This document shows positions 16,185-31,410 of a stretch of 58,536 nucleotides of DNA, piece after piece; the first letter of the stretch is position 1; the number at the start of each line of letters is the position of its first letter. The DNA comes from Escherichia phage E21. The notes beneath the pieces are model-generated. The model was not told the DNA's origin, did no database searches, and worked only from the letters and a program-made list of their open reading frames with translations. The DNA lies in the sequence record NC_052983.1. One strand, 5' to 3'. A program made the position numbers and the translations under genes.

Positions 16185-16197
16185 TTTCGGCCACCCC

Positions 16198-16887: not shown

Positions 16888-16936
16888 TTTTTAAATCCTT
16901 TAGTTTTAGTTTTAATTCAAGCCAAATTATTAAATA

Positions 16937-17737: not shown

Positions 17738-17790
17738 TTTAAAATCCTCAATACTGGTTAAAGTTTCCGGTTCGTTCCGGCTATGTGTGT

Positions 17791-17819
17791 AATATAATGC
17801 TACCGCTTTCAGGTGTCAA
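17791..17819 (-). promoter_or_regulatory. sigma70-like promoter, cassette A (TTGACA-17-TATATT) with conserved leader
   Basis: Minus-strand TTGACAcctgaaagcggtagcatTATATT; ~85-bp cassette repeated near-identically at 19510..19590 and 21000..21075. Confidence 0.6.
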
Positions 17820-17898
17820 CATGTTTTTATAATTATTTTAGATAATAAAAAAGGACGGCCACCAGAAAAGATGACCGCCCCGATTGTTGATGCTTCGA

Positions 17899-18120
17899 TT
17901 ACCGTGTGAGCATCGTAACCACGGATTTTTTAACCATTTCCAAGGAATCCCCGCCAAGGCTCACACCTTGCCCGCAGAAAGTCCACGGCTTGAGGTGGTG
18001 TGGTGTCTTGGCAATCGTCCCGATCCATACACCGCCCGCAACAACGTAATAAATATTTTCGCCTCGCTCTTGGTAAATCTCGATCGTCTTATCCAAGGTT
18101 GGATTATTTACCGGCTTCAT
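17899..18120 (-). CDS. hypothetical protein
   Basis: Track ORF 17899..18174 trimmed to internal Met (MKPVNN) to limit overlap with upstream gene. Confidence 0.35.
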   Translation of the reverse strand: MKPVNNPTLDKTIEIYQERGENIYYVVAGGVWIGTIAKTPHHLKPWTFCGQGVSLGGDSLEMVKKSVVTMLTR

Positions 18121-18754: not shown

Positions 18755-18757
18755 GTT

Positions 18758-19498: not shown

Positions 19499-19552
19499 GA
19501 TTTAAATCCTCAAAACTGGTTTAAGTTTCCGGTTCGTTCCGGCGATGTGAGT

Positions 19553-19581
19553 AATATAATACTACCGCTTTCAGGTGTCAA
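19553..19581 (-). promoter_or_regulatory. sigma70-like promoter, cassette B (TTGACA-17-TATATT)
   Basis: Near-identical to cassettes A and C. Confidence 0.6.
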
Positions 19582-19609
19582 CAAGTTTTTTATAAATATT
19601 TTAGGCAAT

Positions 19610-19650
19610 AAAAAACCTCTTACCGTGGCACCGAATAAGAGGTTTTAGTT
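19610..19650 (-). terminator. rho-independent terminator (structurally bidirectional)
   Basis: CCUCUUA-13 nt loop-UAAGAGG; U6 on minus strand, UUUUAGUU on plus. Confidence 0.65.
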
Positions 19651-19729
19651 ACTAACTTGTTTTCATGTTTTCAAATCAAGGCTATATTAACGGATATTTT
19701 TCAACTTGTAAACAATAAATTTCTCAGCG

Positions 19730-19758
19730 GAAAAGAAAAAAGCCCGCATATACGGGCT
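19730..19758 (-). terminator. rho-independent terminator
   Basis: Minus RNA AGCCCG-UAUAUG-CGGGCU followed by UUUUUCUUUUCC. Confidence 0.65.
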
Positions 19759-20047
19759 TAAAATATAAGGCTTAATGACCTAAAATTACGCAAACTTTAC
19801 GAAGTGTGGCACAAGCAACCCAAATCAACCAACGGATGCGAACTTATCCACCGTTGAGCCGAACAATAACACCGTTACGTGGTGCTGTCAAGCGTCGCTA
19901 CACATAGCCCAATTGAACCGCGCCACGGTGAATATATCCCACAGGATACGCACTTTAATCGAAACAAAACTAGCCCGTTACTACTGCGAGCCTCAGATCT
20001 AAACGGCTTACCGCATGAACAATAATACCAGTTTTTCTTTTCCCTGA

Positions 20048-20413
20048 TCACCATACAGACCCCCTTACGTTCGTTAGCGTGTCCCTATAACTCCGGTATA
20101 AATTTTTTGCGCCTCGTATCCATTCGCCGGCGATCTCCCCCGAGAAAAGAACCGGCTCGTAAACCGGATAAGTGACATTAGGGTAATCCGTTCTTACGTC
20201 GTCGATCCTAACGTATGCCCTCCGGTGTCCATAAGAATATCGGACGGTTAGGACTCTAAGCAACTTGTTGTTAACATGGAACACCACGCCATAAGAGTAA
20301 TTAAATTCCGGTAATGATAAATCGTTGCTAGGCCTCCCGATAGCCACTACCGGTAGATTTAGAAACTCATTACAAACCTCATAAAATTTGAAACAATTTA
20401 CTGAGTTACCCAT
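20048..20413 (-). CDS. hypothetical protein
   Basis: Track ORF 20048..20515 trimmed to internal Met (MGNSVN), which overlaps the stop of the upstream gene. Confidence 0.45.
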   Translation of the reverse strand: MGNSVNCFKFYEVCNEFLNLPVVAIGRPSNDLSLPEFNYSYGVVFHVNNKLLRVLTVRYSYGHRRAYVRIDDVRTDYPNVTYPVYEPVLFSGEIAGEWIRGAKNLYRSYRDTLTNVRGSVW

Positions 20414-20975
20414 GATATACAACCCCGCGCAGTTCCAGACCTCGGAAATTATAATAAATTTCAGACTCTCCGGCTTCGTTCGGCGCCCACATGCACACAG
20501 AAAAGTCGCCAGCATCGAACTCTCTTAGGTGTGGAATGTGACCGAAACGGCACCCGCCAGTGATTACCAGTTCGTCGATTGTTCCGAACTCCTCGCAACC
20601 CTCGACAACTTCTTCCAGTGCTTCGGCCAGTTCTTCGATGTAGGCTTCCACTTGTTCACGCCAAGACGCGCTTATTAATGCGTTAGCTTCCATCATCAAA
20701 CATTTTAATGAACTTTTGCACCCGCTGAAATCTAAAGGCGTTTCTAGCTCAACAGAATCAAACTCGCTAGACTGGACGATCTCCCATGCTTCCCCGAAGT
20801 AGTCGACGCTGATACATTCCGGCGCATTCATAAGATTATTTTCTTCGAAAAGGTCGCGTAATTGATTTTCGAAATCTCCGCGGGTATCTAATGAAGTTCC
20901 TTTAGGTAGACCCGTACTAACATCATCAACGATAGATTGGAAGATAGACGCTTTAGTGTATGCTAATTCTGCCAT
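20406..20975 (-). CDS. strongly acidic hypothetical protein (DNA-mimic-like composition)
   Basis: 189 aa from ATG 20975 (RBS GAGGA 8 nt upstream); ~40 D/E versus ~11 K/R; preceded by promoter cassette C. Confidence 0.5.
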   Translation of the reverse strand: MAELAYTKASIFQSIVDDVSTGLPKGTSLDTRGDFENQLRDLFEENNLMNAPECISVDYFGEAWEIVQSSEFDSVELETPLDFSGCKSSLKCLMMEANALISASWREQVEAYIEELAEALEEVVEGCEEFGTIDELVITGGCRFGHIPHLREFDAGDFSVCMWAPNEAGESEIYYNFRGLELRGVVYHG

Positions 20976-21029
20976 GGTAATACTCCTCAATACTGGTTAA
21001 AGTTTCCGGTTCGTTCCGGCTATGTGTGT

Positions 21030-21058
21030 AATATAATACTACCGCTTTCAGGTGTCAA
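21030..21058 (-). promoter_or_regulatory. sigma70-like promoter, cassette C (TTGACA-17-TATATT)
   Basis: Near-identical to cassettes A and B. Confidence 0.6.
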
Positions 21059-21080
21059 CATGTTTTTGTGATTATTTTAA

Positions 21081-21482
21081 TCAATCGGGGAAATAGGGAA
21101 TTTTACACTCACATAAGGTCAGATTTTCTATGTGGGTAAAAATAACCTCTAAGTGCAACGTCTTCCAGCACTGACCAGAATTAAGGAAATGCCGGCGGAT
21201 AATGAGCCAGCCCCGATCATCTTCGACTATTCCGGATATGCGAAGGCTTACAATAGTTTTGTTGTCTGAGTAAGCCGGTTTACTCTCCGGATCAGCTCGG
21301 AAGTAAAACGCATTAGCTAGGTTTAAAATAGTCTGTATGTCGTGCGTAGATAGTTGTAACTCTTTTTCGTGCGGACTCAAGAACGAAGAAAGCCGGGATC
21401 TCGCCCGGCGTGAATTGGTATCTTTAGGAACTGATGAAAAGTATGTCACACCGTCCACCCCATCAACTGTATAATCGCTCAA
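21081..21482 (-). CDS. hypothetical protein
   Basis: 133 aa; TTG start with RBS GAGGTG upstream. Confidence 0.4.
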   Translation of the reverse strand: MSDYTVDGVDGVTYFSSVPKDTNSRRARSRLSSFLSPHEKELQLSTHDIQTILNLANAFYFRADPESKPAYSDNKTIVSLRISGIVEDDRGWLIIRRHFLNSGQCWKTLHLEVIFTHIENLTLCECKIPYFPD

Positions 21483-21654
21483 AACTTTTCACCTCTCGAT
21501 GTGTAACCGTTCGATTATATGAAATGTTACGAGTTAACATAAAGCGCATATCCCACGCCGGACAGAATAGCGAACCGTCTGCGTTTACCGTAACTTTTTC
21601 GTCGTCAGCGATTAAAATCATACCGCTGTTTAATGTGATTTTATTCTTCATCAT
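21463..21654 (-). CDS. hypothetical small protein
   Basis: Track ORF trimmed to internal Met (MMKNKITL). Confidence 0.3.
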   Translation of the reverse strand: MMKNKITLNSGMILIADDEKVTVNADGSLFCPAWDMRFMLTRNISYNRTVTHREVKSFERLYS

Positions 21655-21883
21655 TACCGCCCCCACGTATCGCAGATATAAACGCCTCCCCGCTCTCCTG
21701 ATCAGGCCACGCAATCCCGCCGACCACCCCAAACGCTACCCCATAAAGACAGAAACGCGCGACGGTTAGATCACCATATACGGCCAAAGTTCCCACCGCC
21801 CCCGCGAACCCTACCGCACAAAGAGACGCGACGACAAAACCAAACGCCCCGCGAGCCTCTAAATTATTTAATTTCTTAGCCAT
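21641..21883 (-). CDS. small membrane protein (2 TM)
   Basis: 80 aa; hydrophobic helices FGFVVASLCAVGFAGAVGTLAV and FCLYGVAFGVVGGIAW. Confidence 0.45.
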   Translation of the reverse strand: MAKKLNNLEARGAFGFVVASLCAVGFAGAVGTLAVYGDLTVARFCLYGVAFGVVGGIAWPDQESGEAFISAIRGGGNDEE

Positions 21884-21894
21884 CGATAAACTCC

Positions 21895-22221
21895 TTACGG
21901 GTGAATAATAATATTATCGTTGCGAGTTCGAACCGGCTCCGATAAATACATATTAGCCACCTTACCGCTTTTTATATCCTTTTTAATCTCGGACACCATC
22001 AAGCCCGACCGGATAATTACAGAAGACGGGCTACTCACTCTTTCTTCTGATATCGCAACAGGGAAAGGGAAATCATTCAATAAGTTATCGATGAACTTTT
22101 CCAGATAATCCGCGTCGGCTTTATGGGAGAGAACGACATATTGCTCATAGTTCGCCTCGATCCCTGTGACAGTCAGACGATGCGCAGAACGGAAAAGATC
22201 GAAAGGAATTTGTTTGCTCAT
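21895..22221 (-). CDS. hypothetical protein
   Basis: Start at ATG 22221 (MSKQIPFD) with RBS GAGG; downstream of promoter D. Confidence 0.45.
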   Translation of the reverse strand: MSKQIPFDLFRSAHRLTVTGIEANYEQYVVLSHKADADYLEKFIDNLLNDFPFPVAISEERVSSPSSVIIRSGLMVSEIKKDIKSGKVANMYLSEPVRTRNDNIIIHP

Positions 22222-22253
22222 TACTAAAACCTCAGTTTGTTTGTGTGCTGAGA

Positions 22254-22282
22254 ATATTAGCAACACCTCGGGCCGGTGTCAA
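22254..22282 (-). promoter_or_regulatory. sigma70-like promoter D (TTGACA-17-TAATAT), shares the -35/upstream element of cassettes A-C
   Basis: Minus-strand TTGACAccggcccgaggtgttgcTAATAT. Confidence 0.45.
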
Positions 22283-22287
22283 CAAGT

Positions 22288-22562
22288 TTTTATCTATAAA
22301 AATTCTGACGGAACAAAGGAAACGCGCCCACCGGTGCGCCCGTACATACATATAAGTCGGCCAGTTTGTACTTATCTACAAAAATTTCGGGCTTACTTCA
22401 AAAACCTCGCGGGCCGATGATTTTCTGTGACGATTTAAAAACTTTTCCGGCCGGCTTACTTCAAAAACCTCGCGGGCTGAAAAAATTCCCGTGAGAAATA
22501 AAAACCGGCCAATGGATTTATCTACAAAAATTAGAACCTTACTTCAAAAACCTCGCCGGTTG
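22288..22562. repeat. iteron-like direct repeat array (3x TATCTAyAAAAATT and 3x CTTACTTCAAAAACCTCGC(G/C)GG)
   Basis: Motif A at 22291, 22373, 22519; motif B at 22392, 22455, 22538; in the divergent control region between minus promoter D and plus promoter 22621. Confidence 0.7.
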
Positions 22563-22620
22563 ACGGAAATCCTCGGGTAACATCGATTAAAACTTTACGG
22601 CCAAAAATACATAAAAACGT

Positions 22621-22649
22621 TTGACACCGCAAACAGGTTAGATTAGTAT
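22621..22649 (+). promoter_or_regulatory. sigma70-like promoter of plus-strand early operon (TTGACA-17-TAGTAT)
   Basis: TTGACAccgcaaacaggttagatTAGTAT, then RBS AAGGGG and ATG 22691. Confidence 0.5.
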
Positions 22650-22690
22650 TCTCGGACATTAAAGATGATTAGTCACAACAAGGGGAAAAC

Positions 22691-23122
22691 ATGATCGAGT
22701 CAGAAGATATTATTTTCGTAAACGGCGACAAACCTAAAATCGATAACTCGCCAGCGCTAGAAAGACGCAACACGGTTAGTGTAGAACTAGAACGAGAGTT
22801 AACCGCAGCGTCTTCGATTCCGGACAAACTTACAGTAGTACCAACAAAAGGGAGACCAACCAGCATGGTAGGTATGATCGTATCGTTAGATGTCGGAGAC
22901 GTGTTCACTAAATCCGAGTTTATTCTTGAAGTTTCAGGTCTCGACGCCATGAGCGAGAGCGTAGACCTGACTACACGAAAAGAAAAACTCAGACAAAGCG
23001 TAAAAGCGTCTATGACACACGCTAAAAAGAAAACTAAGGGCGAATATACTTTAGAAACGCACCACTTTATTACGCCGTTGGGTCGCCTTTACATTCAAGT
23101 TTTAGTGACCCGTATTTCCTGA
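22691..23122 (+). CDS. hypothetical protein
   Basis: 143-aa ORF, first gene after promoter. Confidence 0.5.
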   Translation: MIESEDIIFVNGDKPKIDNSPALERRNTVSVELERELTAASSIPDKLTVVPTKGRPTSMVGMIVSLDVGDVFTKSEFILEVSGLDAMSESVDLTTRKEKLRQSVKASMTHAKKKTKGEYTLETHHFITPLGRLYIQVLVTRIS

Positions 23123-23203
23123 GCAATTTTTTGTAGGTTTCACGTTTTTTAAAAAGGCGTGACACCCTATGGTAAACAACCACCCTATCGGAGAGAAAAA
23201 CCA

Positions 23204-23515
23204 ATGGAACGCAACGACAATTTAGAGCACACCACCCCCGCAGACCCGGATACGCAAATCGTCAAGTTGTTAGAGGGGAACCCGGATCTTTTAAAGCACT
23301 TTTATAAACTTTCCGCATTAGCGGGAAACGTGGGGGAGATGGAACGCTCTTTCGAAGAACGAGTTGACGCCGTGTTTAAAGTAGGTATCCGCCTAGTCAT
23401 GGTCGCGAGCAACCGGAAAAACCTTATCGTAACCGATGACGATGTGGCAAAGGCGGAGAACTCAACACTGGAAGTTAGCGAAAATAACGGCAATGTTAAA
23501 TATATGATCAAGTAG
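23204..23515 (+). CDS. hypothetical protein
   Basis: Start set at MERNDN, which has RBS GGAGAG; the upstream ATG lacks an RBS. Confidence 0.45.
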   Translation: MERNDNLEHTTPADPDTQIVKLLEGNPDLLKHFYKLSALAGNVGEMERSFEERVDAVFKVGIRLVMVASNRKNLIVTDDDVAKAENSTLEVSENNGNVKYMIK

Positions 23516-23520
23516 GTAAT

Positions 23521-23841
23521 ATGAAAAATTCAAACGTAGCACTCGCCATTGATTCCGTTTTGGTAAAAAAGAAAATTGATATTATCCCGGTTTTTAAATC
23601 GTTAGAGGAAGAATATCAAATGCGGATACAAGCGTCGTGGTCAGGCATCACCGCGCACACGCCAGAACGACGCATCTACACCCACGGCCACCCGACTACT
23701 AAGATGGCAACAACACCGGAACAACGTACAACGTATCGCCTCCGTCTATTGAAATTCCTACGGTGGCTCTACGCGAACAACTACACAACGGGGCCACTGT
23801 TAGAAATCAAATCGTGGCTAGAGGAGCAAGAGGAATGGTAA
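23521..23841 (+). CDS. hypothetical protein
   Basis: 106-aa ORF. Confidence 0.45.
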   Translation: MKNSNVALAIDSVLVKKKIDIIPVFKSLEEEYQMRIQASWSGITAHTPERRIYTHGHPTTKMATTPEQRTTYRLRLLKFLRWLYANNYTTGPLLEIKSWLEEQEEW

Positions 23842-24182
23842 AGGTCTTATACAACAGCGAACAAGCGCAAGTAAACCAGTTGCGAGACCAGATTAAATCG
23901 CACACTGAGTCGTTTGAAACAGCGATGGCCGAAGTCGACCAGATCATTAAAGAAAATATCGAGACATACCTAAACGATATATCCGGGTTAATGATGTCGA
24001 TAGTTAGAGTGTATGACAACGCGGAGATTGAGGACAAAGCGGTGGCCTTAGATCTTGTTCACTCTAAAGCGGTAACTCGTTTAGCTGCTATCGAAGATAA
24101 GAGCATAGAACTACGCGCCCATATTGAAAACTTAGTATCCACCATTAAAACCGGAGTGATTAAAAACAATGAAACCATTTGA
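23835..24182 (+). CDS. hypothetical protein (coiled-coil-like)
   Basis: Start set at MVKVLYN with RBS GAGGAGCAAGAGGA; overlaps previous stop. Confidence 0.45.
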   Translation: MVKVLYNSEQAQVNQLRDQIKSHTESFETAMAEVDQIIKENIETYLNDISGLMMSIVRVYDNAEIEDKAVALDLVHSKAVTRLAAIEDKSIELRAHIENLVSTIKTGVIKNNETI

Positions 24183-25257
24183 TAAATTTATTGCTTTTGC
24201 AATATCTGAACCAGCAGACCCTAACAATACGACTTCGTTTTCCGCATTAGCTAACGGGACAGAAGACCAACTAAAACAACTAGGCCGAGAACTAGAAACA
24301 AGCCTGAGAAACTTACCGATCGGAGACCCAAGCGCTATGCAGTGGACGCGCCACGGTTTTGCTAAACCCGACGAGAACGCCGAACCGATCACCGTTGTAG
24401 ATGAAGTCCTAGGGGACATGGAAGACACACCATACGTTATGATAGACGAAGCGGGTAAATATCTTGTGTTCACTTTCGAAGAACGTGCTCGAATGCTAAG
24501 CCCGACAACGATCAAGGACGAATTAGAGGTTAAAGTAAAAGATTGGATAGAACGAGTTGGTGACACCCCGACAAAACGTGAACGTAATGATATGCGCGAT
24601 GAAATCATCAATGACTTGTTGCCAAAGGCCACAATAAAGCGCACCAAGACATACGCCATGATCATCAAGGGTGTTCTTATTGTCTTCGCCGGTAGCAATA
24701 ACATCGGTGAAAAAGTAGCATCGGCCGTAAGAAAGGTAGTAGGGTCTCTCCCAGTAGTACCATGGTTTGAGCATTCGGCCCTCATTACGGAGTTTCTAAA
24801 GAAAATCGCTACGGTAGACTTTGACCCGGAAGATGCAGTAGGCCAAGCGCTAGATAAATTTGAGATTGTCCGTAGTGCTAAAGTCTCCGCTGAAACCGGT
24901 GCGTACACTTTCAAAGATGTTTTTGACATCACGAATGACGTTTCCTTCAAAGAAGCGCTAGGACAAACTAACGGATACTCATACCCTCTCGGGATCACCG
25001 AAGCGAATTTAGAATTACGACATGACGCCACAGACAGCCCTATCGGTTTTGTTCTTACGGCCAAAGGCGTTTTAAAGAGCGTAAATTGGAATGACGAGCC
25101 GGAAAATATTTTCGACGACTCAGTGTTTGACACGAACGAGGAACGGGAGCGTGCTCGATTTATTTTCTCTACGTGGGACGCTTACACCTTAGTTACGGCC
25201 GTGCTAGGAGCGCTACACAACGCAAACGCAAACCGATTTGTAGAAGACGATATGTAA
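24169..25257 (+). CDS. rdgC: RdgC-like recombination-associated protein
   Basis: 362 aa; block RNDMRDEIINDLLPKA...VRKVVGSLPVVPW closely parallels the E. coli RdgC core (...LRKSLGSLPVVPL) from memory. Confidence 0.7.
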   Translation: MKPFDKFIAFAISEPADPNNTTSFSALANGTEDQLKQLGRELETSLRNLPIGDPSAMQWTRHGFAKPDENAEPITVVDEVLGDMEDTPYVMIDEAGKYLVFTFEERARMLSPTTIKDELEVKVKDWIERVGDTPTKRERNDMRDEIINDLLPKATIKRTKTYAMIIKGVLIVFAGSNNIGEKVASAVRKVVGSLPVVPWFEHSALITEFLKKIATVDFDPEDAVGQALDKFEIVRSAKVSAETGAYTFKDVFDITNDVSFKEALGQTNGYSYPLGITEANLELRHDATDSPIGFVLTAKGVLKSVNWNDEPENIFDDSVFDTNEERERARFIFSTWDAYTLVTAVLGALHNANANRFVEDDM

Positions 25258-25259
25258 TT

Positions 25260-25460
25260 ATGAATACAGAACGTAAAAAACTGGCGTCTAACCTGACAAG
25301 ACTAAAAGTCGGAGAGTCTTTCTTCGTAGAATGTCTTCCGAAAGACCTAGCCCACGTTCGACGCCTAGCTTATAAGCTGAATATTAAGTTATCCATGGTT
25401 CGTGTCGATGTCGACCCGATCTACGGTACATTGGGGACGAGGATATCTCGCGTCAAGTAA
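25260..25460 (+). CDS. hypothetical small basic protein
   Basis: 66-aa ORF from internal Met of track ORF 25173..25460. Confidence 0.35.
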   Translation: MNTERKKLASNLTRLKVGESFFVECLPKDLAHVRRLAYKLNIKLSMVRVDVDPIYGTLGTRISRVK

Positions 25461-25467
25461 AAACGCA

Positions 25468-25503
25468 TTGACACCTTGCGGGGGATTAGTTACGATTCCC
25501 CCG
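25468..25503 (+). promoter_or_regulatory. sigma70-like promoter (TTGACA-17-TACGAT) overlapped by a 7-bp inverted repeat (operator-like)
   Basis: TTGACAccttgcgggggattagtTACGAT; inverted repeat CGGGGGA..11 nt..TCCCCCG spans the -10. Confidence 0.45.
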
Positions 25504-25526
25504 TATTATAAACGTAAGAGGCTCAC

Positions 25527-26345
25527 ATGATTAAACTTATGCACTATGCGGATTACGACTACCGCGACCCAAGTAAACATGAACACCGAATATTCCCGGT
25601 TCCGGCCGGAATTAGAGTCGGGGTGATCATTAAACGCGTTAAGTCCATCGCGAACCCAACAAAGATTGAGGTGTGGCAATACGACGAAAAAGGTAACGCG
25701 ATTACTGACCTTACCGGCTTCGCCCCACACATCGAGGAAATATGTTTAAAAGCGTACCAATGGCTTACAGAACATACATTATCTCTATCCGGGATCTCTG
25801 ATACTGAGTCCGATGCGTATGACTCCGGGATCGTAATCGATGGGTATTTCCAAGATATCCGTCCCAACTATGGAACGGCCGACGAGACATTAGACCAGTT
25901 GGAAGAATGGTTATTAGATGAATTCGAGACGACGGACGAAACTAAAACCATATTTCAATATCTGGCCGTTACGACCTACGAGTCAGCGCTTCGCGGTAAA
26001 GACGGTAAAGACATTCATCTACGCCGTTCTAACCTACGCCATGCGTTGTGCGCATCGAACAATGCTGACCACACCCGAGCAAATATCTCTGTCTCGGATA
26101 ATGTGCCACGTTTTACCGTGTGGCCGATGTCTATGTCACCTCGTTCTTGGGATATGAGCAAGCCCGGCCCGAACGCTTGGGACTCCATGGCGGGCGTCGC
26201 AGCACCAAGAGGTCAACAATTCGAAGACCAGTTAAATACATGCTTTGAGCGCGGTTTTATCGGCGGGCTAGATATGCGAGCGTTTCACGGCTGGAATACA
26301 AGAGTTACCGCGTACCAGTTTATTACTGAGGACGCAACGTTATGA
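25527..26345 (+). CDS. hypothetical protein
   Basis: 272-aa ORF; RBS AAGAGG. Confidence 0.5.
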   Translation: MIKLMHYADYDYRDPSKHEHRIFPVPAGIRVGVIIKRVKSIANPTKIEVWQYDEKGNAITDLTGFAPHIEEICLKAYQWLTEHTLSLSGISDTESDAYDSGIVIDGYFQDIRPNYGTADETLDQLEEWLLDEFETTDETKTIFQYLAVTTYESALRGKDGKDIHLRRSNLRHALCASNNADHTRANISVSDNVPRFTVWPMSMSPRSWDMSKPGPNAWDSMAGVAAPRGQQFEDQLNTCFERGFIGGLDMRAFHGWNTRVTAYQFITEDATL

Positions 26346-27109
26346 TTGACGGGGAATTGGATATTATGGCACTACCACAGATTAAAGACTTTGCCGGATA
26401 CGATGGCCCGTTAGACCACCCGATCATTATGCCTGTTCCGTCCCTCATGAGGGCGGAAGTCTATGTATCCCACGATTTAAAGGATATAGAAATCAACGGC
26501 GTTTTTCGCGACGGAACCTATTCTGCGTCGAGATGGACGGGGTTATGCCCGGAATTAGAAGAACAATTTTTATTCCTAGCGGAGTTGTTGAAAGACGACT
26601 TTAAGGAAAAATGTATCCTCCCATTTAGAGTTGGTCGAGACAAGTCCGAACTACGGGAAGTCGATAGATTTATCCCGGGGATCACCGGAAACATCGGTTT
26701 TGAAGTGTATTTACATGACACCGGGGATTTCGGCACCAAGTATACTCAGAAATACTTAGCCAACAGTAAGATGACGGGAGAGAAAGACGACGGCGGGCTA
26801 GTATCCGCCTCGATCGTGAGCGCTTACGGGTTCGGGGAACTAACGCCAGTTTCGCGCGAGGTAATAGACGTTGTGCGGATTTACGAAAGACGTTATCAGA
26901 TTAGCCACCGACTCAACCTCATGGACGACGAGGGGTATTTGCTGTCATTAGCTCCCGGAGAACTGAAACGCGTTGACGCGGTACGAACTGCTGAATTCTA
27001 TTTCGAACAAGGATACCCCAACGTGATTATTCTCAATTCCGGACGTCCGTACAACTCCGACGCTACCGGACAAATGTATTACTATTCACCGGAGACATAC
27101 GACTTATGA
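26342..27109 (+). CDS. hypothetical protein
   Basis: 255-aa ORF, ATGA overlap with neighbours. Confidence 0.5.
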   Translation: MIDGELDIMALPQIKDFAGYDGPLDHPIIMPVPSLMRAEVYVSHDLKDIEINGVFRDGTYSASRWTGLCPELEEQFLFLAELLKDDFKEKCILPFRVGRDKSELREVDRFIPGITGNIGFEVYLHDTGDFGTKYTQKYLANSKMTGEKDDGGLVSASIVSAYGFGELTPVSREVIDVVRIYERRYQISHRLNLMDDEGYLLSLAPGELKRVDAVRTAEFYFEQGYPNVIILNSGRPYNSDATGQMYYYSPETYDL

Positions 27110-27552
27110 CCGAGCACAAGAAATTAACCCGCGTGTACGGCGCTAACCTTTGTACTTTTTGCGGTAGAGCATGGGAAGACGGAGAAGAAATCCCCGATTG
27201 CGTTGCGCCCCAAGAGGAGGTTCAAAAAACACGCAAGAAATTTTTCCGGGCATACTTCCCGGCGCCAACCCACTTTACCGCATGGTTGTTATATGGGAAT
27301 AACGGTAAAGCGATGGTCGCCTATGCGGATCATCGGGAGGTGGCTTTACGCATCGGGTATTATTGGACGAGAAACAGAAAAGATATTGTAAAGGTAGAAG
27401 AATCGGCGGAGCTAACCCGTTTTGCTGTTTGGCAATCCGTACCCTATATTGAGATTAATCCGGTAATTATTAATAAACTAAACCAGTTAAGCAAAAAAGG
27501 GGATAACATAATAATATCTCCCGCTAATTTTAAAAAGGCCATTTATGACTAA
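27106..27552 (+). CDS. hypothetical protein
   Basis: 148-aa ORF. Confidence 0.5.
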   Translation: MTEHKKLTRVYGANLCTFCGRAWEDGEEIPDCVAPQEEVQKTRKKFFRAYFPAPTHFTAWLLYGNNGKAMVAYADHREVALRIGYYWTRNRKDIVKVEESAELTRFAVWQSVPYIEINPVIINKLNQLSKKGDNIIISPANFKKAIYD

Positions 27553-28177
27553 GTTAGATGAAGTACGCAAATTATCATACTCGTTCAAACTGCCCGAAGA
27601 TGTCCGAGAGGGAACCTATGTAGTTTTACGCTTCGAATCTGAGGTAGGAAAGTGGTATCAGAACGCAAATATTGTTAGCTATATGCTCGGTGTTATCAGC
27701 CACACTACTAAGACACAATTCCAAGTTTCTTGTGAGGGTTTATCCTCCCCGATGCGTTTCGGGCGCGATGGCGGTATCCGCGCAGACAGCAAGGGACAAG
27801 TTGGTGGCGCACTAAGAACGTCAGTATTCCTTGCCGGTAGTGCAGATACCGCAGAAGAATACATCAAGGGCCAAGTAGAACAACACAACGACCCCGAAGT
27901 AGTAAGACGCGAGCCAACGTTCCACTTAAAAAATGCTGACGATTTGATAGGTATCATCGTCAAGCTGGACAAGCTGATAAACGATGCGACAACGCTATGG
28001 GGCGCAATACCTGAAAAATGGAAAGGCCGAGAGCAACGACGTAGCCGAAACGACCGAATACCGCATGATATGTTAGTAGCGATCTTGTGTAATCCGGACG
28101 CATCGGACATATTAGCAGACCTATTTAAGTCCATAGCTAAAGCATTCGGAGTATCAACCAAAAAAGAGGAAGAATGA
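27545..28177 (+). CDS. hypothetical protein
   Basis: 210-aa ORF. Confidence 0.5.
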   Translation: MTKLDEVRKLSYSFKLPEDVREGTYVVLRFESEVGKWYQNANIVSYMLGVISHTTKTQFQVSCEGLSSPMRFGRDGGIRADSKGQVGGALRTSVFLAGSADTAEEYIKGQVEQHNDPEVVRREPTFHLKNADDLIGIIVKLDKLINDATTLWGAIPEKWKGREQRRSRNDRIPHDMLVAILCNPDASDILADLFKSIAKAFGVSTKKEEE

Positions 28178-28914
28178 TGATCAATCCCTACGCGGTGGAA
28201 TTACAGAAATTGAAAGACGCCAAGAAACACATTCCAAAGCAGATAAAAGACCAATGGCGTACTCCGGACTGGCTTTTCTACGCGCTAAACTCTTTATACG
28301 GCCCGTTCTTGGTAGATTTGTTTTCAGATGGACAGAATGCTAAGTGCTCCCGGTATTTCATGGCCGAGGATAATGCGCTACAACAGAACTGGAAAGAAGC
28401 ACTAGAAGACGCCAAGTTTGAATTCCTTATCGATGCAGACTGTGCGGGGTACGATGCTACTGACGATCTAAAGACGGCCAAGTGTTTTGCTAACCCGCCA
28501 TACAGCCCGGCTAAGTATATCGGTAAAGGGCGTAAGAATAGAATACCGCTCTGTGGTATGCGAAATATCATGGCTAAGGCCTACGAGGAACACAAGGCCG
28601 GTTGCCCTTCATTCTGGTTGCTTAAATCCGCCACGTCAGAAGATTGGTGGCCTAACGAGACCGCAAGCCAGATAATCCACATCAAGGGTAGAATTGCTTT
28701 CGAGAAACCGGTGTGGTTTAGAGATGAGGTCGTAGACCGCGTGGAAAGTAGTGCTGCTTTCGGTGCGTCCGTTGCTATTTTTAACGGAATAAACGATATT
28801 CAAGAACCGGAAGCCTACATCAGTCGAGATACCTTAAAATTAATAGGGGAGCCACTTGCTGAAATTAATGCGGAAAGACGCGCCGAGTGGATAGCTAGTT
28901 TCGACGATCTATAA
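28174..28914 (+). CDS. phage-type DNA N6-adenine methyltransferase
   Basis: N-terminal WRTPDWLF and catalytic-type FANPPY motifs typical of the phage Dam family; RBS GAGGAAGA. Confidence 0.7.
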   Translation: MMINPYAVELQKLKDAKKHIPKQIKDQWRTPDWLFYALNSLYGPFLVDLFSDGQNAKCSRYFMAEDNALQQNWKEALEDAKFEFLIDADCAGYDATDDLKTAKCFANPPYSPAKYIGKGRKNRIPLCGMRNIMAKAYEEHKAGCPSFWLLKSATSEDWWPNETASQIIHIKGRIAFEKPVWFRDEVVDRVESSAAFGASVAIFNGINDIQEPEAYISRDTLKLIGEPLAEINAERRAEWIASFDDL

Positions 28915-28919
28915 TTTAA

Positions 28920-28938
28920 GGGGGCCTTGTGGCCTCCC
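28920..28938 (+). other. stable stem-loop immediately 3' of the methyltransferase gene (no U-run)
   Basis: GGGGGCC-UUGU-GGCCUCCC, 7 bp with one G.U. Confidence 0.35.
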
Positions 28939-29155
28939 TATTAAAAGGTAAATCCCGTGAAAATTCTAAAGTATACATTGCTTGTGTTGATTGTGATTTC
29001 TGCGGTTGTCGGCTCATACATGGCAATACGATCAACCTCATGCGCGGAGTATGGCCAGAAGAACAAAGTTGCGACCGAATACTCATTGTACGAGGGTTGT
29101 GTGATAAAAAACTCCGGCCACCCGTAAAAAAGTTCACCTCAAGCGAGAAAAATAG

Positions 29156-29184
29156 TTGACACCGCGATCCGGAGTCGATAGTAT
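29156..29184 (+). promoter_or_regulatory. sigma70-like promoter (TTGACA-17-TAGTAT), same family as 22621
   Basis: TTGACAccgcgatccggagtcgaTAGTAT, then RBS AAGGGGG and ATG 29216. Confidence 0.5.
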
Positions 29185-29215
29185 ACCCCTACACCAAGAG
29201 ATAAGGGGGTACGAC

Positions 29216-29749
29216 ATGGATCATAAGTACAAGGTTTCGGACAGGAATACCGTCGCCCGAGTAGTGGGCCGTCATCGCCAATGGTGCGACGCATACGTTG
29301 AGGTAAAACGTATCGTTCGTGAAATGTCCGAAAAAGGGATAACCGATCTGGAAGTTGACGCGATGCCGATCCACGCGCACCTAAACCGGATTGCTGGTTT
29401 CAACTCATTTTTTGCCAACACTCAAAACGAATGGTGGCTAAGATTTAGACCATTTGAAGCCTACCCACAAGATAACGGGAAGACGCTAATTAAGTACCGC
29501 GACTCCCACCCGTGTAACATCTGGCGAAAAGTAGAAAAGATGGAATTCGACCGAGAAGATTTAGAACGAAGAATAAGTCGTATCGAACAAATATTACAAG
29601 GACAGCCGGAAACAATCGCATACGATAGAAAAGTATTTCGAATTCGTAGAACACAAGAATTATCTCAAACCGGCATGTCAAACCGAAAAGCGAGAAAAAT
29701 CGCATGGGAGGAAGCCGGTAGAGAATTCCCGGGAGAAGACCATGTTTGA
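29216..29749 (+). CDS. hypothetical protein
   Basis: Start moved from track call 29156 (which begins inside the promoter) to ATG 29216 (MDHKYK). Confidence 0.5.
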   Translation: MDHKYKVSDRNTVARVVGRHRQWCDAYVEVKRIVREMSEKGITDLEVDAMPIHAHLNRIAGFNSFFANTQNEWWLRFRPFEAYPQDNGKTLIKYRDSHPCNIWRKVEKMEFDREDLERRISRIEQILQGQPETIAYDRKVFRIRRTQELSQTGMSNRKARKIAWEEAGREFPGEDHV

Positions 29750-29993
29750 TGAAATACGGAGAATAAAACGGAAATATGAAATGTTGCCTCCCGGAGATAA
29801 CATACCTCTGTATGGCGATTTCATTGAGTTTAAGGACGAATTTAACGGAGCAACATATATTGGGGAGGTGTTAGATCACCATTTCAGTTCAACACCTCAC
29901 GATCAAATTTGGAATGTCTTCGTAGACGGCGTGACCATATCTGCGAAACAATCTGAGATAACAAGAGTATACCGACGCAAACGGAGAAAATAG
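29742..29993 (+). CDS. hypothetical protein
   Basis: 83-aa ORF. Confidence 0.4.
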   Translation: MFDEIRRIKRKYEMLPPGDNIPLYGDFIEFKDEFNGATYIGEVLDHHFSSTPHDQIWNVFVDGVTISAKQSEITRVYRRKRRK

Positions 29994-29994
29994 C

Positions 29995-30858
29995 ATGAAA
30001 GACCTAACAAAACCTTTAGTAGAAATCGATATCGACGTTAGAACGGATTACCTACCTCACGGTGTTTTATCCGTTGATATCAAAACCGAGGAAATATCTC
30101 ACGAACTAAAATCGTTACTAGCCGATACATTTGAAGCCATGGTAGTTCGTTTGATTTCTTCGGAGAGAAAATACCAAAGAGGGAACTCTTACCAGAACGA
30201 AGAACTAGCGCAAAGCGGTGAACTCGCATTCCGGATCGCCGACCGGCTTAAAAATTTCCAAGATATTGACGCCATGAATTTGATTATGTTTTCCATGTAC
30301 CATCAGGCGTATTCTGGACAACAAATTCATCTAATGGATAGTTGTATTAAAGATTTCCATCGCGGGGTGGTAGACGCGTATAACTTCATTGATTCTACTT
30401 GCCCTCCCGGTTGTGCTGAGGAAGCGTTCCGAACACTGCTTATGAGCGAGTTAGTCGACACTACCATGAAAGAACTCGGCAAAGGCGATAAAACCTCATA
30501 CAAGATGTTAGGTGGCGATACGGCCAAGTTATCCGTTAACCCCCCTAAGTCCCTAAAAGCATTTGCGGATCAACTAGGCGACGAGGAGCTTTACATCTAT
30601 AACATTCTAGGCATGAATTTTGTGATCCCATGGTGGGGCGATACCGTAGTAGCGAATAAGGAAAAACAACTACTCGTGTTCCCGGGTGTACCATATGTTG
30701 ATCGAGAGACCGATAGATGGCGTTCACCAGACTGTGAAGATTTCCAAAAAGACGGTCTCGTTATCGGCACAATAGATGTCTCGAAAGAAAGAGAATATCT
30801 CATTGATGGTTTTATTCTATCTCTGTCCGCATTCAACCGCAAACCGCTAGAGGGCTAA
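29995..30858 (+). CDS. hypothetical protein
   Basis: 287-aa ORF. Confidence 0.5.
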   Translation: MKDLTKPLVEIDIDVRTDYLPHGVLSVDIKTEEISHELKSLLADTFEAMVVRLISSERKYQRGNSYQNEELAQSGELAFRIADRLKNFQDIDAMNLIMFSMYHQAYSGQQIHLMDSCIKDFHRGVVDAYNFIDSTCPPGCAEEAFRTLLMSELVDTTMKELGKGDKTSYKMLGGDTAKLSVNPPKSLKAFADQLGDEELYIYNILGMNFVIPWWGDTVVANKEKQLLVFPGVPYVDRETDRWRSPDCEDFQKDGLVIGTIDVSKEREYLIDGFILSLSAFNRKPLEG

Positions 30859-30860
30859 AA

Positions 30861-31325
30861 ATGAAATTAGTATACATAGCTGGCCCATACCGCGCAGACA
30901 CCAAAGAGGGCGTGGCTGAAAATATCCGTAAGGCACAAGTAATCGGGCTATCTCTAACCACCAACGGACATACATTAGGGGTATTCCCCGTGATCCCTCA
31001 CATGAATACGGCGCACTTTGAGACCCACACTTTAACCGTATCACAAAAATTCAGCGCTTTTATTGAGCCGGTGCCAGATGAATACTGGCTACAAGGAACA
31101 ATGGCATTGATGGAAAAATGCGATGCGGTTTTATTGACGCACCCACAAGCCGGCATAACAAGCAAGGGAACGCGGGCGGAGGTTATGCGCGCTATTGAGT
31201 TGGGTATTCCTGTTTATGACCACATAAACGGTCTACTATCTGACCTTAGAGACGAATCAACGCCTCTACGAAGTATTAATGTTTTGAATGACAAGCGAGA
31301 ATTTCTCGGGGCGGTTGATGAGTGA
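30861..31325 (+). CDS. DUF4406-like / nucleoside 2-deoxyribosyltransferase-like protein
   Basis: N-terminal MKLVYIAGPYRA motif typical of this Rossmann-like family; RBS AGAGGG. Confidence 0.5.
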   Translation: MKLVYIAGPYRADTKEGVAENIRKAQVIGLSLTTNGHTLGVFPVIPHMNTAHFETHTLTVSQKFSAFIEPVPDEYWLQGTMALMEKCDAVLLTHPQAGITSKGTRAEVMRAIELGIPVYDHINGLLSDLRDESTPLRSINVLNDKREFLGAVDE

Positions 31326-31391: not shown

Positions 31392-31410
31392 AAGGGGCGT
31401 AATGCCCCTT
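31392..31410. terminator. bidirectional rho-independent terminator at the convergent junction of the plus early operon and the minus lysis/structural operon
   Basis: AAGGGGC-GUAAU-GCCCCUU perfect 7-bp stem; U-rich on both sides. Confidence 0.7.

What the first reader, a model, noticed from the sequence alone, without database searches (positions are those of the whole stretch)
25468..29184. Family of plus-strand promoters TTGACACC-N-TA(G/C)(T/G)AT, one overlapped by a 7-bp inverted repeat
Promoters at 22621, 25468 and 29156 share -35 TTGACAcc and a TAGTAT/TACGAT -10 with a 17-nt spacer. The one at 25468 is spanned by the inverted repeat CGGGGGA..TCCCCCG covering the -10, an operator-like arrangement, which suggests this promoter is separately regulated within the early operon.
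Basis: seen in the sequence. Interest (0 to 1): 0.4.

Follow-up and report, generated by a model that had tools for sequence, protein, structure and literature searches.

The report
Phage promoter with embedded stem-loop
The three sites belong to a family of seven near-consensus host-polymerase promoters in a Proteus phage, and the inverted repeat around one of them is evolutionarily maintained, but as a base-paired stem-loop of a promoter-plus-attenuator cassette already known from T4-type phages, not as a repressor operator.

Summary
The window is a complete Proteus siphophage genome (Casjensviridae, Lavrentievavirus; 97% identical to pPM_01). TTGACACC occurs 7 times (1.7 expected). Each copy has an A-tract upstream, a 17-nt spacer and a TAnnAT -10, lies in an intergenic gap and points at the next gene. 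Four are on the minus strand (17819, 19581, 21058, 22282) and three on the plus strand (22621, 25468, 29156). The family recurs at syntenic positions in at least nine other Casjensviridae genera.

The inverted repeat at 25468 is real: 7 bp, extendable to 9 (25477-25485 / 25497-25505), with the -10 in its loop. Alone it is weakly significant, but orthologs settle it. In six sequence variants from four lineages the pairing is kept by different sequences (CGGGGGA/TCCCCCG, TATCGGGA/TCTCGATA, GTCCCGGG/CTCGGGAC). Five of 9 pairs show compensatory double changes, and G·T pairs occur on the sense strand. Sixty-two other family promoters lack this symmetry.

That pattern indicates base pairing, not protein half-sites. 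There is no second copy and no recognisable repressor. Distant genera have a canonical terminator just upstream of this promoter; this clade has none. The anatomy matches PeSL promoter/stem-loop cassettes of T4-type phages. No transcript ends were mapped.

The parts
22609..22649 (+). Promoter P22621: A-tract ACATAAAAAC (22609-22618), -35 TTGACA (22621-22626) plus CC, 17-nt spacer, -10 TAGTAT (22644-22649). Predicted start near 22656. It is the first promoter of the rightward cluster and drives 22691-25460 (DUF7609 protein ... RdgC ... 66-aa protein).
   Evidence: Syntenic orthologs in Kokobel1, Saba, L020 and L021. Pfam hits.
25456..25496 (+). Promoter P25468: A-tract AGTAAAAACG, which contains the upstream gene's TAA stop (25458-25460); -35 TTGACA (25468-25473) plus CC; 17-nt spacer; -10 TACGAT (25491-25496). 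Predicted start near 25503. It sits in the 66-bp gap between the 66-aa ORF (stop 25460) and the 272-aa ORF (ATG 25527).
   Evidence: -35, T-12, A-11, A-8 and T-7 are invariant in 7 orthologous sequences while -10 positions 3-4 vary. A promoter at this syntenic place is found in 11 genomes.
25477..25505 (+). Predicted RNA hairpin of -15.6 kcal/mol. It is present only in transcripts that start upstream, because the predicted start of P25468 lies inside the 3' arm.
   Evidence: Covariation in orthologs.
25506..25529 (+). A/U-rich tail (TTATAAACGT), Shine-Dalgarno AAGAGG (25516-25521) and ATG (25527-25529) of the 272-aa gene. This is the 3' end of the cassette.
   Evidence: A/U-rich tails also follow the stem in all orthologs.
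25527..28914 (+). Transcription unit served by P25468: four proteins of unknown function (272, 255, 148 and 210 aa) plus a Dam-family N6-adenine methyltransferase (28174-28914).
29144..29184 (+). Promoter P29156: A-tract CGAGAAAAAT, -35 TTGACA (29156-29161) plus CC, 17-nt spacer, -10 TAGTAT (29179-29184). Predicted start near 29191. It drives 29216-31325, which ends at the bidirectional hairpin 31392-31410.
22254..22294 (-). Promoter P22282, the minus-strand divergent partner of P22621: -35 22282-22277 plus CC, -10 TAATAT 22259-22254. Its spacer makes a perfect ACACC-N7-GGTGT dyad with the -35.
21030..21070 (-). Promoter P21058 (minus strand), part of a 96-nt repeated cassette (20984-21079).
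19553..19593 (-). Promoter P19581 (minus strand), part of the repeated cassette (19507-19602). A terminator-like hairpin with a T-tract lies immediately upstream (score d = +8.8).
17791..17831 (-). Promoter P17819 (minus strand), part of the repeated cassette (17745-17840). A canonical terminator (17881-17852, score d = +38) lies immediately upstream.

Best explanation
The three sites are members of a seven-member family of promoters read by the host's sigma70 RNA polymerase. Each has a proximal UP-like A-tract, a consensus -35, a 17-bp spacer and a TAnnAT -10, and one heads each transcription unit of the phage's two divergent non-structural gene clusters.

P25468 is in addition a composite cassette. 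Its spacer and discriminator double as the two arms of a GC-rich stem-loop whose loop holds the -10. The predicted start of P25468 lies inside the 3' arm, so the hairpin can form only in RNA that reads through from P22621; no terminator separates the two units.

Inferred mechanism: the hairpin, followed by an A/U-rich stretch, attenuates, terminates or 3'-end-stabilises the upstream transcript, while the promoter re-initiates. Expression of the next unit (four unknown proteins plus Dam) is then set by P25468 rather than by accumulated upstream transcription. This is the arrangement described for PeSL cassettes of T4-type phages.

Shown: the motif family, its synteny, and the compensatory conservation of the stem. 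Inferred: transcription starts, that the stem acts as RNA, and what it does to the transcript.
For: Promoter family:
- 7 exact TTGACACC against 1.7 expected.
- All have an A-tract, a 17-nt spacer and TAnnAT, and are intergenic and co-oriented with the next gene.
- They are the top sigma70-like scores in the genome.
- Syntenic orthologs occur in Kokobel1, Saba, Stilesk, SLP-22, JC01, Enc34, JS26, A18P4, Seifer and four metagenomic contigs.
- Only the functionally critical -10 positions are invariant.

Stem:
- Symmetry about the -10 scores 8, 7, 7 and 7 of 9 pairs in the window, Kokobel1, L020 and L021. The 55 non-orthologous family promoters score mean 2.3, maximum 5. The seven distant orthologs score 1-5.
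- On 7 sequences, 85.2% of cells are paired against 67.8 +/- 4.1 in shuffles (0/500). Five of 9 pairs show changes on both sides. Covariation is 0.423 against 0.158 (0/500). Slid controls give 20-63% paired and covariation <=0.185.
- RNAalifold finds the same helix unaided.
- There are 4 G.T pairs on the sense strand against 1 A/C.
- The close relatives L020 and L022 differ by T:A to G:C at one pair.
- Hairpin energies are -7.3 to -15.6 kcal/mol.

Context:
- In seven distant genera a canonical terminator (d = +4 to +23) lies immediately upstream of the syntenic promoter. In this clade the upstream stop codon abuts the A-tract and no such terminator exists.

Precedent:
- PeSLs combine a sigma70 consensus promoter, an AT-rich upstream region holding the upstream stop codon, and a polyG-loop-polyC stem-loop with G-T pairs. 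[quoted passage not shown] An SD and ATG sit at the 3' end.
- One such stem-loop reduced lacZ expression like rrnB T1 (PMC2839356; PMC4122927).
Against: - No transcript 5' or 3' ends are available for this phage or any close relative.
- The hairpin is not a canonical intrinsic terminator. The loop is 11-13 nt and there is no U-tract. My d'Aubenton-Carafa-type score is -25 in the window and -45 to -59 in the orthologs, around the 90th-99th percentile of random windows but below zero.
- The Kokobel-type stems are weak (-7 to -9 kcal/mol).
- The comparative set is small: 7 sequences, 6 variants, about 3-4 independent lineages. The shuffle control ignores relatedness.
- The preference for the sense strand is slight (85% against 80%).
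- Only one of the seven promoters has the embedded stem, so this genome is not a PeSL-rich system.
- The one replacement found between the window and PM87 is not bounded by cassettes.
Confidence: 0.55

Rival explanations
1. Operator. A dimeric phage or host repressor binds the two arms on duplex DNA across the -10 and switches P25468 off or on independently of the other promoters.
For: The dyad is symmetric and centred on the -10 (position -12), a classic repressor location. A core CGGG...C(C/T)CG is shared by five of seven orthologs. Most early proteins have unknown function, so an unrecognised DNA binder cannot be excluded.
Against: - The outer arm positions co-vary through several different pair types between close relatives, which protein half-sites do not require.
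- The stem extent shifts between lineages.
- G.T pairs interrupt the symmetry in 3 of 7 sequences at one position.
- Half-site centres are about 18 bp apart in the window and about 23 bp in L020, an inconsistent geometry.
- No second site exists in the genome.
- No HTH, RHH or other DNA-binding domain was detected.
- There were no PDB sequence matches for three small conserved proteins.
Confidence: 0.12
2. Translational or stability element of the long mRNA. The hairpin, together with pairing of CCUU (just after the -35) to the GAGG Shine-Dalgarno, masks the ribosome-binding site of the 272-aa gene in read-through transcripts, or protects the upstream mRNA's 3' end after cleavage in the A/U-rich tail. 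The gene would then be translated mainly from P25468-initiated RNA.
For: - The minimum-free-energy fold of 25461-25530 pairs the -35/CC region with the SD and ATG region (-18.7 kcal/mol, z = -2.0).
- RNAalifold adds an outer helix CCUU/GAGG, kept in most of the seven sequences.
- An A/U-rich single-stranded stretch next to a stem resembles RNase E sites (own knowledge).
Against: The outer helix consists mainly of invariant promoter and SD bases, so it has no covariation support. It closes a large internal loop and is thermodynamically marginal. The z-score is modest.
Confidence: 0.15
3. No separate function. The G-run and C-run are local versions of family-wide features (G-rich spacer at -20/-19, pyrimidine-rich discriminator), and their complementarity is incidental. 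The C-rich discriminator could simply make the open complex short-lived, as in stringently controlled promoters.
For: - GG at spacer positions 10-11 occurs in nearly all family members, and GGGG(T) in all Saba promoters.
- Discriminators are TCTC, TCCC or ACCC in many members.
- 7-bp inverted repeats are common in the genome.
- The Saba ortholog has the G-run but no matching C-run.
Against: L020 and L022 reverse the polarity (CCCGGG on the left, CTCGGG on the right) yet keep the pairing, so composition is not what is conserved. The four closest orthologs are the four best of 66 promoters for this symmetry. The covariation measures exceed all shuffles and all slid controls.
Confidence: 0.08

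Closest known systems
PeSL (promoter-early stem-loop) cassettes of T4-type myoviruses RB49/phi1, PST and nt-1 (Arbiol et al. 2010, PMC2839356; Comeau et al. 2014, PMC4122927)
   Same: [quoted passage not shown]
- A stem-loop rich in polyG followed by polyC, with G-T pairs, placed inside the promoter and overlapping the -10.
- An SD and start codon at the 3' end.
- The whole cassette fills a short intergenic gap between small genes of unknown function.
- The proposed role is attenuation or termination of upstream transcription plus re-initiation.
   Different: - A different virus family (Casjensviridae siphovirus) and host (Proteus).
- Only one of seven promoters has the embedded stem. Two others have ordinary upstream terminators.
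- No evidence here for cassette-mediated gene shuffling or mini-circles.
- Terminator activity is untested, and the canonical-terminator score is negative.
Tandem terminator-promoter modules at the same syntenic junction in other Casjensviridae (Saba, Stilesk, SLP-22, JC01, Enc34, JS26, Seifer)
   Same: The same gene junction (after RdgC plus one or two small ORFs), the same promoter family, and a hairpin that acts on transcripts coming from upstream.
   Different: There the hairpin is a canonical intrinsic terminator with a U-tract and lies upstream of the -35 (d = +4 to +23). Here the gap is about 45 bp shorter, the hairpin is interleaved with the promoter and the U-tract is missing.
Repressor operators overlapping promoter cores (lambda OR/OL, LexA boxes, P1 C1 operators)
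   Same: A dyad-symmetric sequence overlapping the -10 and spacer of a sigma70 promoter.
   Different: Operator half-sites are conserved in sequence and usually recur at several promoters alongside a recognisable repressor gene. Here the arms co-vary, the site is unique and no repressor is detectable.
Strong early promoters of virulent coliphages with UP-like A-tracts (T5 and T7 A-type early promoters; own knowledge)
   Same: A near-consensus -35, 17-bp spacing, an A-rich tract at about -40 to -45, and use of unmodified host RNA polymerase immediately after infection.
   Different: This family also keeps 'CC' at -29/-28 and 'GG' at -20/-19. These are part of a dyad with the -35 that is much stronger in sister genera.

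Membership tests
sigma70-dependent promoter | -35 hexamer close to TTGACA | tested here: met
   6/6 at all seven sites.
sigma70-dependent promoter | 17 +/- 1 bp spacer and a -10 hexamer with A-11 and T-7 | tested here: met
   The spacer is 17 nt at all seven sites. The -10 hexamers are TAGTAT, TACGAT, TAGTAT, TAATAT and TATATT x3. In orthologs T-12, A-11, A-8 and T-7 are invariant and positions 3-4 vary.
sigma70-dependent promoter | Position and orientation: upstream of a gene with a ribosome-binding site, in non-coding DNA | tested here: met
   All seven are intergenic, 30-45 nt upstream of an SD and start codon, and co-oriented with the cluster they precede.
sigma70-dependent promoter | Transcription starts 6-8 nt downstream of the -10 | not testable with these tools
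   No TSS data exist. The only family transcriptome (JS26, PMC8754663) gives cluster-level timing, not ends.
PeSL composite promoter/stem-loop cassette | [quoted passage not shown] | tested here: met
   TAA 25458-25460 lies inside AGTAAAAACG, directly upstream of the -35. Definition from PMC2839356.
PeSL composite promoter/stem-loop cassette | Stable stem-loop, often polyG...polyC with G-T pairs, placed within the promoter (between the boxes or overlapping the -10) | tested here: met
   TGCGGGGGA / TCCCCCGTA around the -10, -15.6 kcal/mol, one G.T pair. It is conserved by covariation.
PeSL composite promoter/stem-loop cassette | SD and start codon at the 3' end of the cassette | tested here: met
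   AAGAGG 25516-25521, ATG 25527.
PeSL composite promoter/stem-loop cassette | The stem-loop terminates or attenuates transcription from upstream | tested here: inconclusive
   It is positionally equivalent to canonical terminators in seven other genera. Its own score is below zero for lack of a U-tract. A reporter or Term-seq experiment is needed.
PeSL composite promoter/stem-loop cassette | Many copies flanking ORFans, with indels between close relatives bounded by cassettes | tested here: not met
   Seven promoters flank small unknown genes and three share a 96-nt repeat. Only one has an embedded stem. The one replacement against PM87 (window 16195-16949) is not cassette-bounded.
Repressor operator | Half-site sequence conserved among relatives that share the regulator | tested here: not met
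   The arms differ between lineages and even between the close pair L020/L022, with compensatory changes.
Repressor operator | A cognate DNA-binding protein is encoded and/or further operator copies exist | tested here: not met
   No DNA-binding Pfam domain or annotated PHROG in 30 proteins of the two clusters. No other copy within 3 mismatches beyond chance. Absence of detectable homology is not proof of absence.
Canonical intrinsic (Rho-independent) terminator | GC-rich stem, short loop, and a run of U immediately 3' of the stem | tested here: not met
   The stem is GC-rich, but the loop is 11-13 nt and the tail is UAUUAUAAAC or similar. d = -25 to -59, against +4 to +38 for canonical terminators scored the same way. 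The consensus scan did not flag it.
Described RNA family (Rfam) | Match to a curated covariance model at gathering score | tested here: not met
   0 matches in the whole window.

The most novel reading that the evidence does not exclude
Across at least ten Casjensviridae genera, the early/middle promoters carry a second dyad of fixed geometry, centred 12 nt into the promoter (about -24). It pairs the 3' part of the -35 with the spacer: GACAC(C/A)-N7-(G/T)GTGTC.
- It is perfect in Aeromonas phage A18P4 (GACACC-N7-GGTGTC, five promoters).
- It reads ACACA-N7-TGTGT in the Jacunavirus, Redjacvirus and Enchivirus phages examined, and GACATGC..GCnTGTC in JS26.
- It is degenerate (ACC-N7-GGT) in this window.
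The half-sites are uniform within a genome and co-vary between genera. In JS26 the dyad-bearing promoters are exactly those of the middle-expressed cluster. The rival reading is that these are further PeSL-type stem-loops overlapping the -35.
Probability: 0.2. Interest if true: 0.6.

Novelty: new member of a known kind. Interest (0 to 1): 0.3.

Why it matters
For this phage group, which is used in Proteus and Providencia phage-therapy studies and is annotated almost entirely as 'hypothetical', this gives the first explicit map of transcription units. There are seven host-type promoters, two divergent clusters, and terminators or attenuators between units.

It also shows that the promoter/stem-loop cassette described in T4-type myoviruses occurs in an unrelated siphovirus family. 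Here the stem is supported by compensatory evolution rather than by repetition alone.

Practically, the DNA at 25456-25529 encodes two overlapping signals, a promoter on DNA and a stem on RNA. Engineering or reporter work at this junction must respect both.

It does not reveal a new regulatory principle.

Tried and rejected
1. Genome-wide count of perfect 7-bp inverted repeats: not enriched, so the repeat alone proves little.
2. Search for further copies of the dyad with up to 3 mismatches: none beyond chance.
3. Pfam and PHROGs on 30 proteins of the two clusters, plus PDB sequence search on three small conserved proteins: no DNA-binding candidate.
4. The 'GntR regulator' annotated in Aeromonas phage A18P4: no homolog in the window, and the annotation looks doubtful.
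5. AlphaFold2 of the DUF7609 protein, the first gene after the divergent promoters and conserved family-wide: mean pLDDT 52 from a 5-sequence alignment. It was unusable, so no fold search was run.
6. IMG/VR scans by protein and by DNA pattern found only Kokobel1. Two metagenome-contig scans found nothing. The informative orthologs came instead from the protein-cluster database.
7. A second -10-like element after the stem (TATTAT 25504-25509; TATAAT in Kokobel1) as a sigma70 pause signal or alternative -10: most Lavrentievaviruses have AATTAT and L020/L022 have nothing similar. Dropped.
8. Canonical intrinsic terminator: rejected by score (the first attempt was flawed because the hairpin picker absorbed the U-tracts).
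9. RNase III site: the stem is too short (own knowledge).
10. JS26 RNA-seq supplement: no per-gene phage counts are held, so differential timing across the syntenic junction could not be read.
11. Cassette-bounded indels against PM87: not found.
12. Covariation test of the P29156 leader hairpin: impossible because its 3' arm is the invariant SD.
13. Rfam: no hits.

Full report
IDENTITY OF THE WINDOW. The 58,536-bp window is a complete, circularly permuted genome of a Proteus siphophage. Region 21000-30000 is 96-98% identical to 26 GenBank phages of the genus Lavrentievavirus (Casjensviridae), for example pPM_01, PM87 and P2-71. Two divergent clusters of mostly unknown genes meet at 22222-22691. 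One is a leftward cluster (about 15161-22266, minus strand, including a Mom-family protein). The other is a rightward cluster (22691-31325, plus strand). The rightward cluster encodes a DUF7609 protein, RdgC, a Dam-family methyltransferase and a nucleoside-deoxyribosyltransferase-like protein.

THE OBSERVATION. The three plus-strand sites are exactly as described. TTGACACC occurs seven times in the window against 1.69 expected, and none of 100 shuffles reaches seven. The other four copies are on the minus strand at 17819, 19581, 21058 and 22282. All seven share AAAAAC-like A-tracts at about -44 to -39, a 17-nt spacer and a TAnnAT -10. All lie in intergenic gaps 30-45 nt upstream of a ribosome-binding site, and all point into the cluster they precede. 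They are the top sigma70-like matches in the genome. The only comparable sites, 10517(-) and 10712(+), form a separate divergent pair beside the replication genes and lack the CC signature. The finding is therefore real, but it is a seven-member, two-strand family.

CONSERVATION OF THE FAMILY. Providencia phage Kokobel1 belongs to a different genus and is about 70% identical here. It has eight TTGACACC sites, seven of them syntenic with the window's seven. The same promoter architecture, in genus-specific dialects, heads the same junctions in the following phages:
- Saba: TTGACTaCC..GGGGT.
- Stilesk, SLP-22, JC01, Enc34 and Seifer: TTGACAcacg..gtgt.
- JS26: TTGACAtgc..gc.tgt.
- Aeromonas phage A18P4: TTGACACC-GGTTTTA-GGTGTC.
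A promoter after RdgC plus one or two small ORFs, the position of P25468, is present in eleven genomes. I found no description of these promoters in the searchable literature.

For JS26, RNA-seq classes the leftward small-gene cluster as early (5 min) and the rightward RdgC/methylase cluster as middle (20 min) (PMC8754663; bioRxiv 10.64898/2025.12.19.695335). 'Early operon' is thus uncertain for the plus-strand units.

THE INVERTED REPEAT IN THE WINDOW ALONE. The arms are CGGGGGA (25479-25485) and TCCCCCG (25497-25503). They flank the -10 (25491-25496), which sits in the 11-nt loop, and pairing extends to 25477-25485 with 25497-25505. Perfect 7-bp repeats are common: 40 in the window against 50.6 +/- 8.4 in shuffles. 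No second copy of this dyad exists. Among 44 family promoters the longest repeat across the -10 is usually 3-4 bp, and a chimeric null gives 7 bp or more in 0.7%. After correcting for seven promoters this is about 5%. Both arms also resemble family-wide features, namely a G-rich spacer and a pyrimidine-rich discriminator. Within the genus the region is nearly invariant, although phage P-07 loses the innermost pair. On this evidence alone I would have called it unproven.

THE INVERTED REPEAT IN ORTHOLOGS. A protein search with the DUF7609 gene and with the 272-aa downstream gene found four metagenome-assembled relatives with the same gene order (L020, L021, L022, L023). Adding Kokobel1 and P-07 gives seven sequences and six variants from about four lineages. 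The arms are:
- Window: TGCGGGGGA...TCCCCCGTA.
- Kokobel1: CTGACGGGA...TCCCGAGAG.
- L021: TAACGGGA...TCCCGGTA.
- L023: TATCGGGA...TCTCGATA.
- L020: TTCCCGGG...CTCGGGAA.
- L022: GTCCCGGG...CTCGGGAC.
The pairing is centred on the same base (position 24 from the first T of the -35) in all of them.

Among 66 family promoters, the four best scores for symmetry about that centre are the P25468 orthologs of the window, Kokobel1, L020 and L021 (8, 7, 7 and 7 of 9). Non-orthologs average 2.3 with a maximum of 5, and the more distant orthologs (Saba, Stilesk, SLP-22, JC01, Enc34, JS26, Seifer) score 1-5.

Formal counting gives the following:
- 85.2% of cells are paired, against 67.8 +/- 4.1% in shuffles (0 of 500 as high).
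- Five of nine pairs have changes on both sides.
- Ten cells are doubly changed (0 of 500).
- Covariation is 0.423 against 0.158 (0 of 500).
- All slid controls are clearly lower.
RNAalifold predicts the same helix unaided. The shuffle control ignores relatedness and the set is small, so these are not probabilities. But multiple pair types occur at single positions (T:A, C:G and G:C; G:C, C:G and T:A; C:G and A:T), and there is a T:A to G:C switch between the close relatives L020 and L022. This is hard to explain except by selection for base pairing.

Meanwhile the -35 and the T-12, A-11, A-8 and T-7 positions of the -10 stay invariant inside and beside the stem. Promoter and stem are therefore both under selection on the same DNA.

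OPERATOR OR STEM. A protein operator predicts conserved half-sites, or free variation at unrecognised positions. It does not predict compensatory variation. The stem's extent also moves (k = 6-12 in the window, 7-14 in L020/L022). One internal pair is G:C in four sequences and G.T in three. G.T pairs number four on the sense strand against one A/C, which gives 85% paired as sense RNA, 80% as antisense and 79% as strict duplex symmetry. No repressor-like protein is detectable. I therefore read the repeat as a nucleic-acid stem, most simply in sense RNA. The predicted start of P25468 (about 25503) lies in the 3' arm, so only transcripts coming from upstream (P22621) contain the hairpin. No terminator separates the units: the upstream stop codon, 25458-25460, lies inside the A-tract.

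WHAT THE STEM DOES (INFERENCE). In all seven distant genera a canonical intrinsic terminator lies immediately upstream of the syntenic promoter, with scores of +4 to +23 in my implementation of the d'Aubenton-Carafa rule. Terminators upstream of P17819 and P19581 score +38 and +8.8. In the window's clade the gap is about 45 bp shorter, there is no such terminator, and the embedded hairpin (-7.3 to -15.6 kcal/mol) is followed by an A/U-rich stretch without a U-run. Its scores are -25 to -59, near the 90th-99th percentile of random windows but below zero. It occupies the terminator's place but is not a canonical terminator.

The literature supplies an exact anatomical precedent. PeSL cassettes of T4-type phages RB49/phi1 are sigma70-consensus promoters with an AT-rich upstream region that holds the upstream stop codon. 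[quoted passage not shown] An SD and ATG sit at the 3' end. One such stem-loop reduced reporter expression like rrnB T1 (PMC2839356; PMC4122927). P25468 meets every anatomical criterion.

My best explanation is therefore a PeSL-like composite. The stem attenuates, terminates or 3'-stabilises the upstream transcript, and the promoter re-initiates. A variant is that the stem, together with CCUU/GAGG pairing, masks the ribosome-binding site in long transcripts. That outer helix is made largely of invariant bases and cannot be tested by covariation. The PeSL property of mediating gene shuffling is not evidenced: the one replacement against PM87 (window 16195-16949) is not cassette-bounded.

A SECOND, FAMILY-WIDE DYAD. 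While comparing genera I found that the 'CC' after the -35 and a conserved 'GG(T)' at spacer positions 10-12 are the remains of a dyad centred on position 12 (about -24). Its consensus is GACAC(C/A)-N7-(G/T)GTGTC. Mean complementary pairs out of 9 about that centre are 4.2 (window), 4.5 (Kokobel1), 4.4 (Saba), 5.8 (Stilesk) and 6.8 (SLP-22). The background at other centres is about 2.2, and no other centre is raised in all five. The dyad is a perfect GACACC/GGTGTC in five A18P4 promoters and scores 7 of 9 in JC01. In the window it is perfect only at P22282 (ACACC-N7-GGTGT).

Half-sites are uniform within a genome and differ between genera, which is what a co-evolving regulator would produce. 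PeSL-type stem-loops 'overlapping the -35' are an alternative. In JS26 the dyad-bearing promoters are those of the middle cluster, whereas the early cluster uses TTGCAT...TATATT promoters. I could not identify a binding protein; the AlphaFold model of the conserved DUF7609 protein was too poor to use. This is the most novel reading left open.

VERDICT. This is a new member of a known kind (a phage promoter/stem-loop cassette), of modest interest. Nothing here was tested experimentally. Transcript 5' and 3' end mapping and compensatory stem mutants in a read-through reporter would decide it.

Noticed in passing
window 22393-22413, 22456-22476, 22539-22559: Three direct repeats CTTACTTCAAAAACCTCGC(G/C)GG, spaced 63 and 83 bp, lie between the divergent promoters P22282 and P22621. 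JS26 has 5-6 similar repeats (ggtacttgagaaagccagcgagacc) in its equivalent region (L013 6300-7140). They look like iterons: an origin of replication or regulator binding sites. pPM_01 annotates a 42-aa ORF across them, which is probably spurious.
   Followed up: partly
window 17745-17840, 19507-19602, 20984-21079 (minus strand): A 96-nt cassette is repeated three times at 85-97% identity. It comprises an A/T-rich UP region, the promoter, a 5' leader with a small hairpin (GCCGGAACGAACCGGA) and an SD. Two copies are preceded by terminators. Kokobel1 and JS26 leftward leaders are similar.
   Followed up: partly
all family promoters; e.g. window 22282-22260 (minus); L017 776, 2802, 5176, 7276; L012 1903, 4661, 11341: A family-wide dyad joins the -35 to the spacer, GACAC(C/A)-N7-(G/T)GTGTC, centred about -24. 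It is present in at least ten Casjensviridae genera with genus-specific half-sites and is degenerate in this window. It could be a common operator or a PeSL-type stem overlapping the -35.
   Followed up: partly
window 28957-29127 (+): An unannotated 56-aa small membrane-protein gene (VKILKYTLLVLIVISAVVGSYMAIRSTSCAEYG...) is homologous to Kokobel1 gp04 and Saba gp33. pPM_01 instead annotates a 41-aa ORF on the opposite strand there. The window's copy ends earlier than its homologs.
   Followed up: partly
window 29184-29211 (+): The leader of P29156 can fold TACCCCT...AGGGGGTA, burying the Shine-Dalgarno sequence of the 177-aa gene. Orthologs keep a pyrimidine-rich 5' arm opposite the invariant AGGGGGTAC. 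Covariation cannot be tested because the 3' arm never varies.
   Followed up: partly
L011 14136 and 17101; L014 14444 and 15772: In Stilesk and Enc34, two rightward promoters are followed within about 10 nt of the -10 by terminator-like leader hairpins (ACTCCCG..CGGGAGTTTTT) before the first gene. This suggests leader attenuation or antitermination control in those genera.
   Followed up: no
L013 (JS26) 2960-3090 and 6300-6420, minus strand: JS26's early (leftward) promoters are a different type (aaaaa..TTGCATccg.c.catattcgg.cTATATT) from its rightward TTGACA dyad promoters. This matches the early-versus-middle split seen by RNA-seq.
   Followed up: partly
window 10517 (-) and 10712 (+): A second divergent pair of strong sigma70-like promoters lies beside the replication genes: TTGACA-16-TATTAT with an A-tract, and TTGACT-18-TATTAT. 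Both lack the CC...GG signature.
   Followed up: no
whole window versus GenBank records: Records labelled Staphylococcus phage SVV09-A, Enterococcus phage AS-M1_NWU, Pseudomonas phage E21 and four 'Salmonella' phages are 96-99% identical to this Proteus phage. Those host assignments look doubtful.
   Followed up: no
window 18107-18754 (-), 28174-28914 (+), 30861-31325 (+): A Mom-family protein, a Dam-family methyltransferase (annotated elsewhere as PAPS reductase) and a nucleoside 2-deoxyribosyltransferase-like protein are encoded. This set hints at DNA modification.
   Followed up: no
window 16195-16949 versus PM87 1677-2981 (L024): A 754-bp segment holding the 229-aa ORF 16198-16887 is replaced by an unrelated 1.3-kb segment in PM87. 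The flanks are 90-96% identical.
   Followed up: no
window 20990-21464 (-): A 133-aa ORF (21081-21482, TTG start) fills a 490-bp stretch left unannotated in pPM_01, between P22282 and P21058. It has no Pfam or PHROG hit.
   Followed up: no
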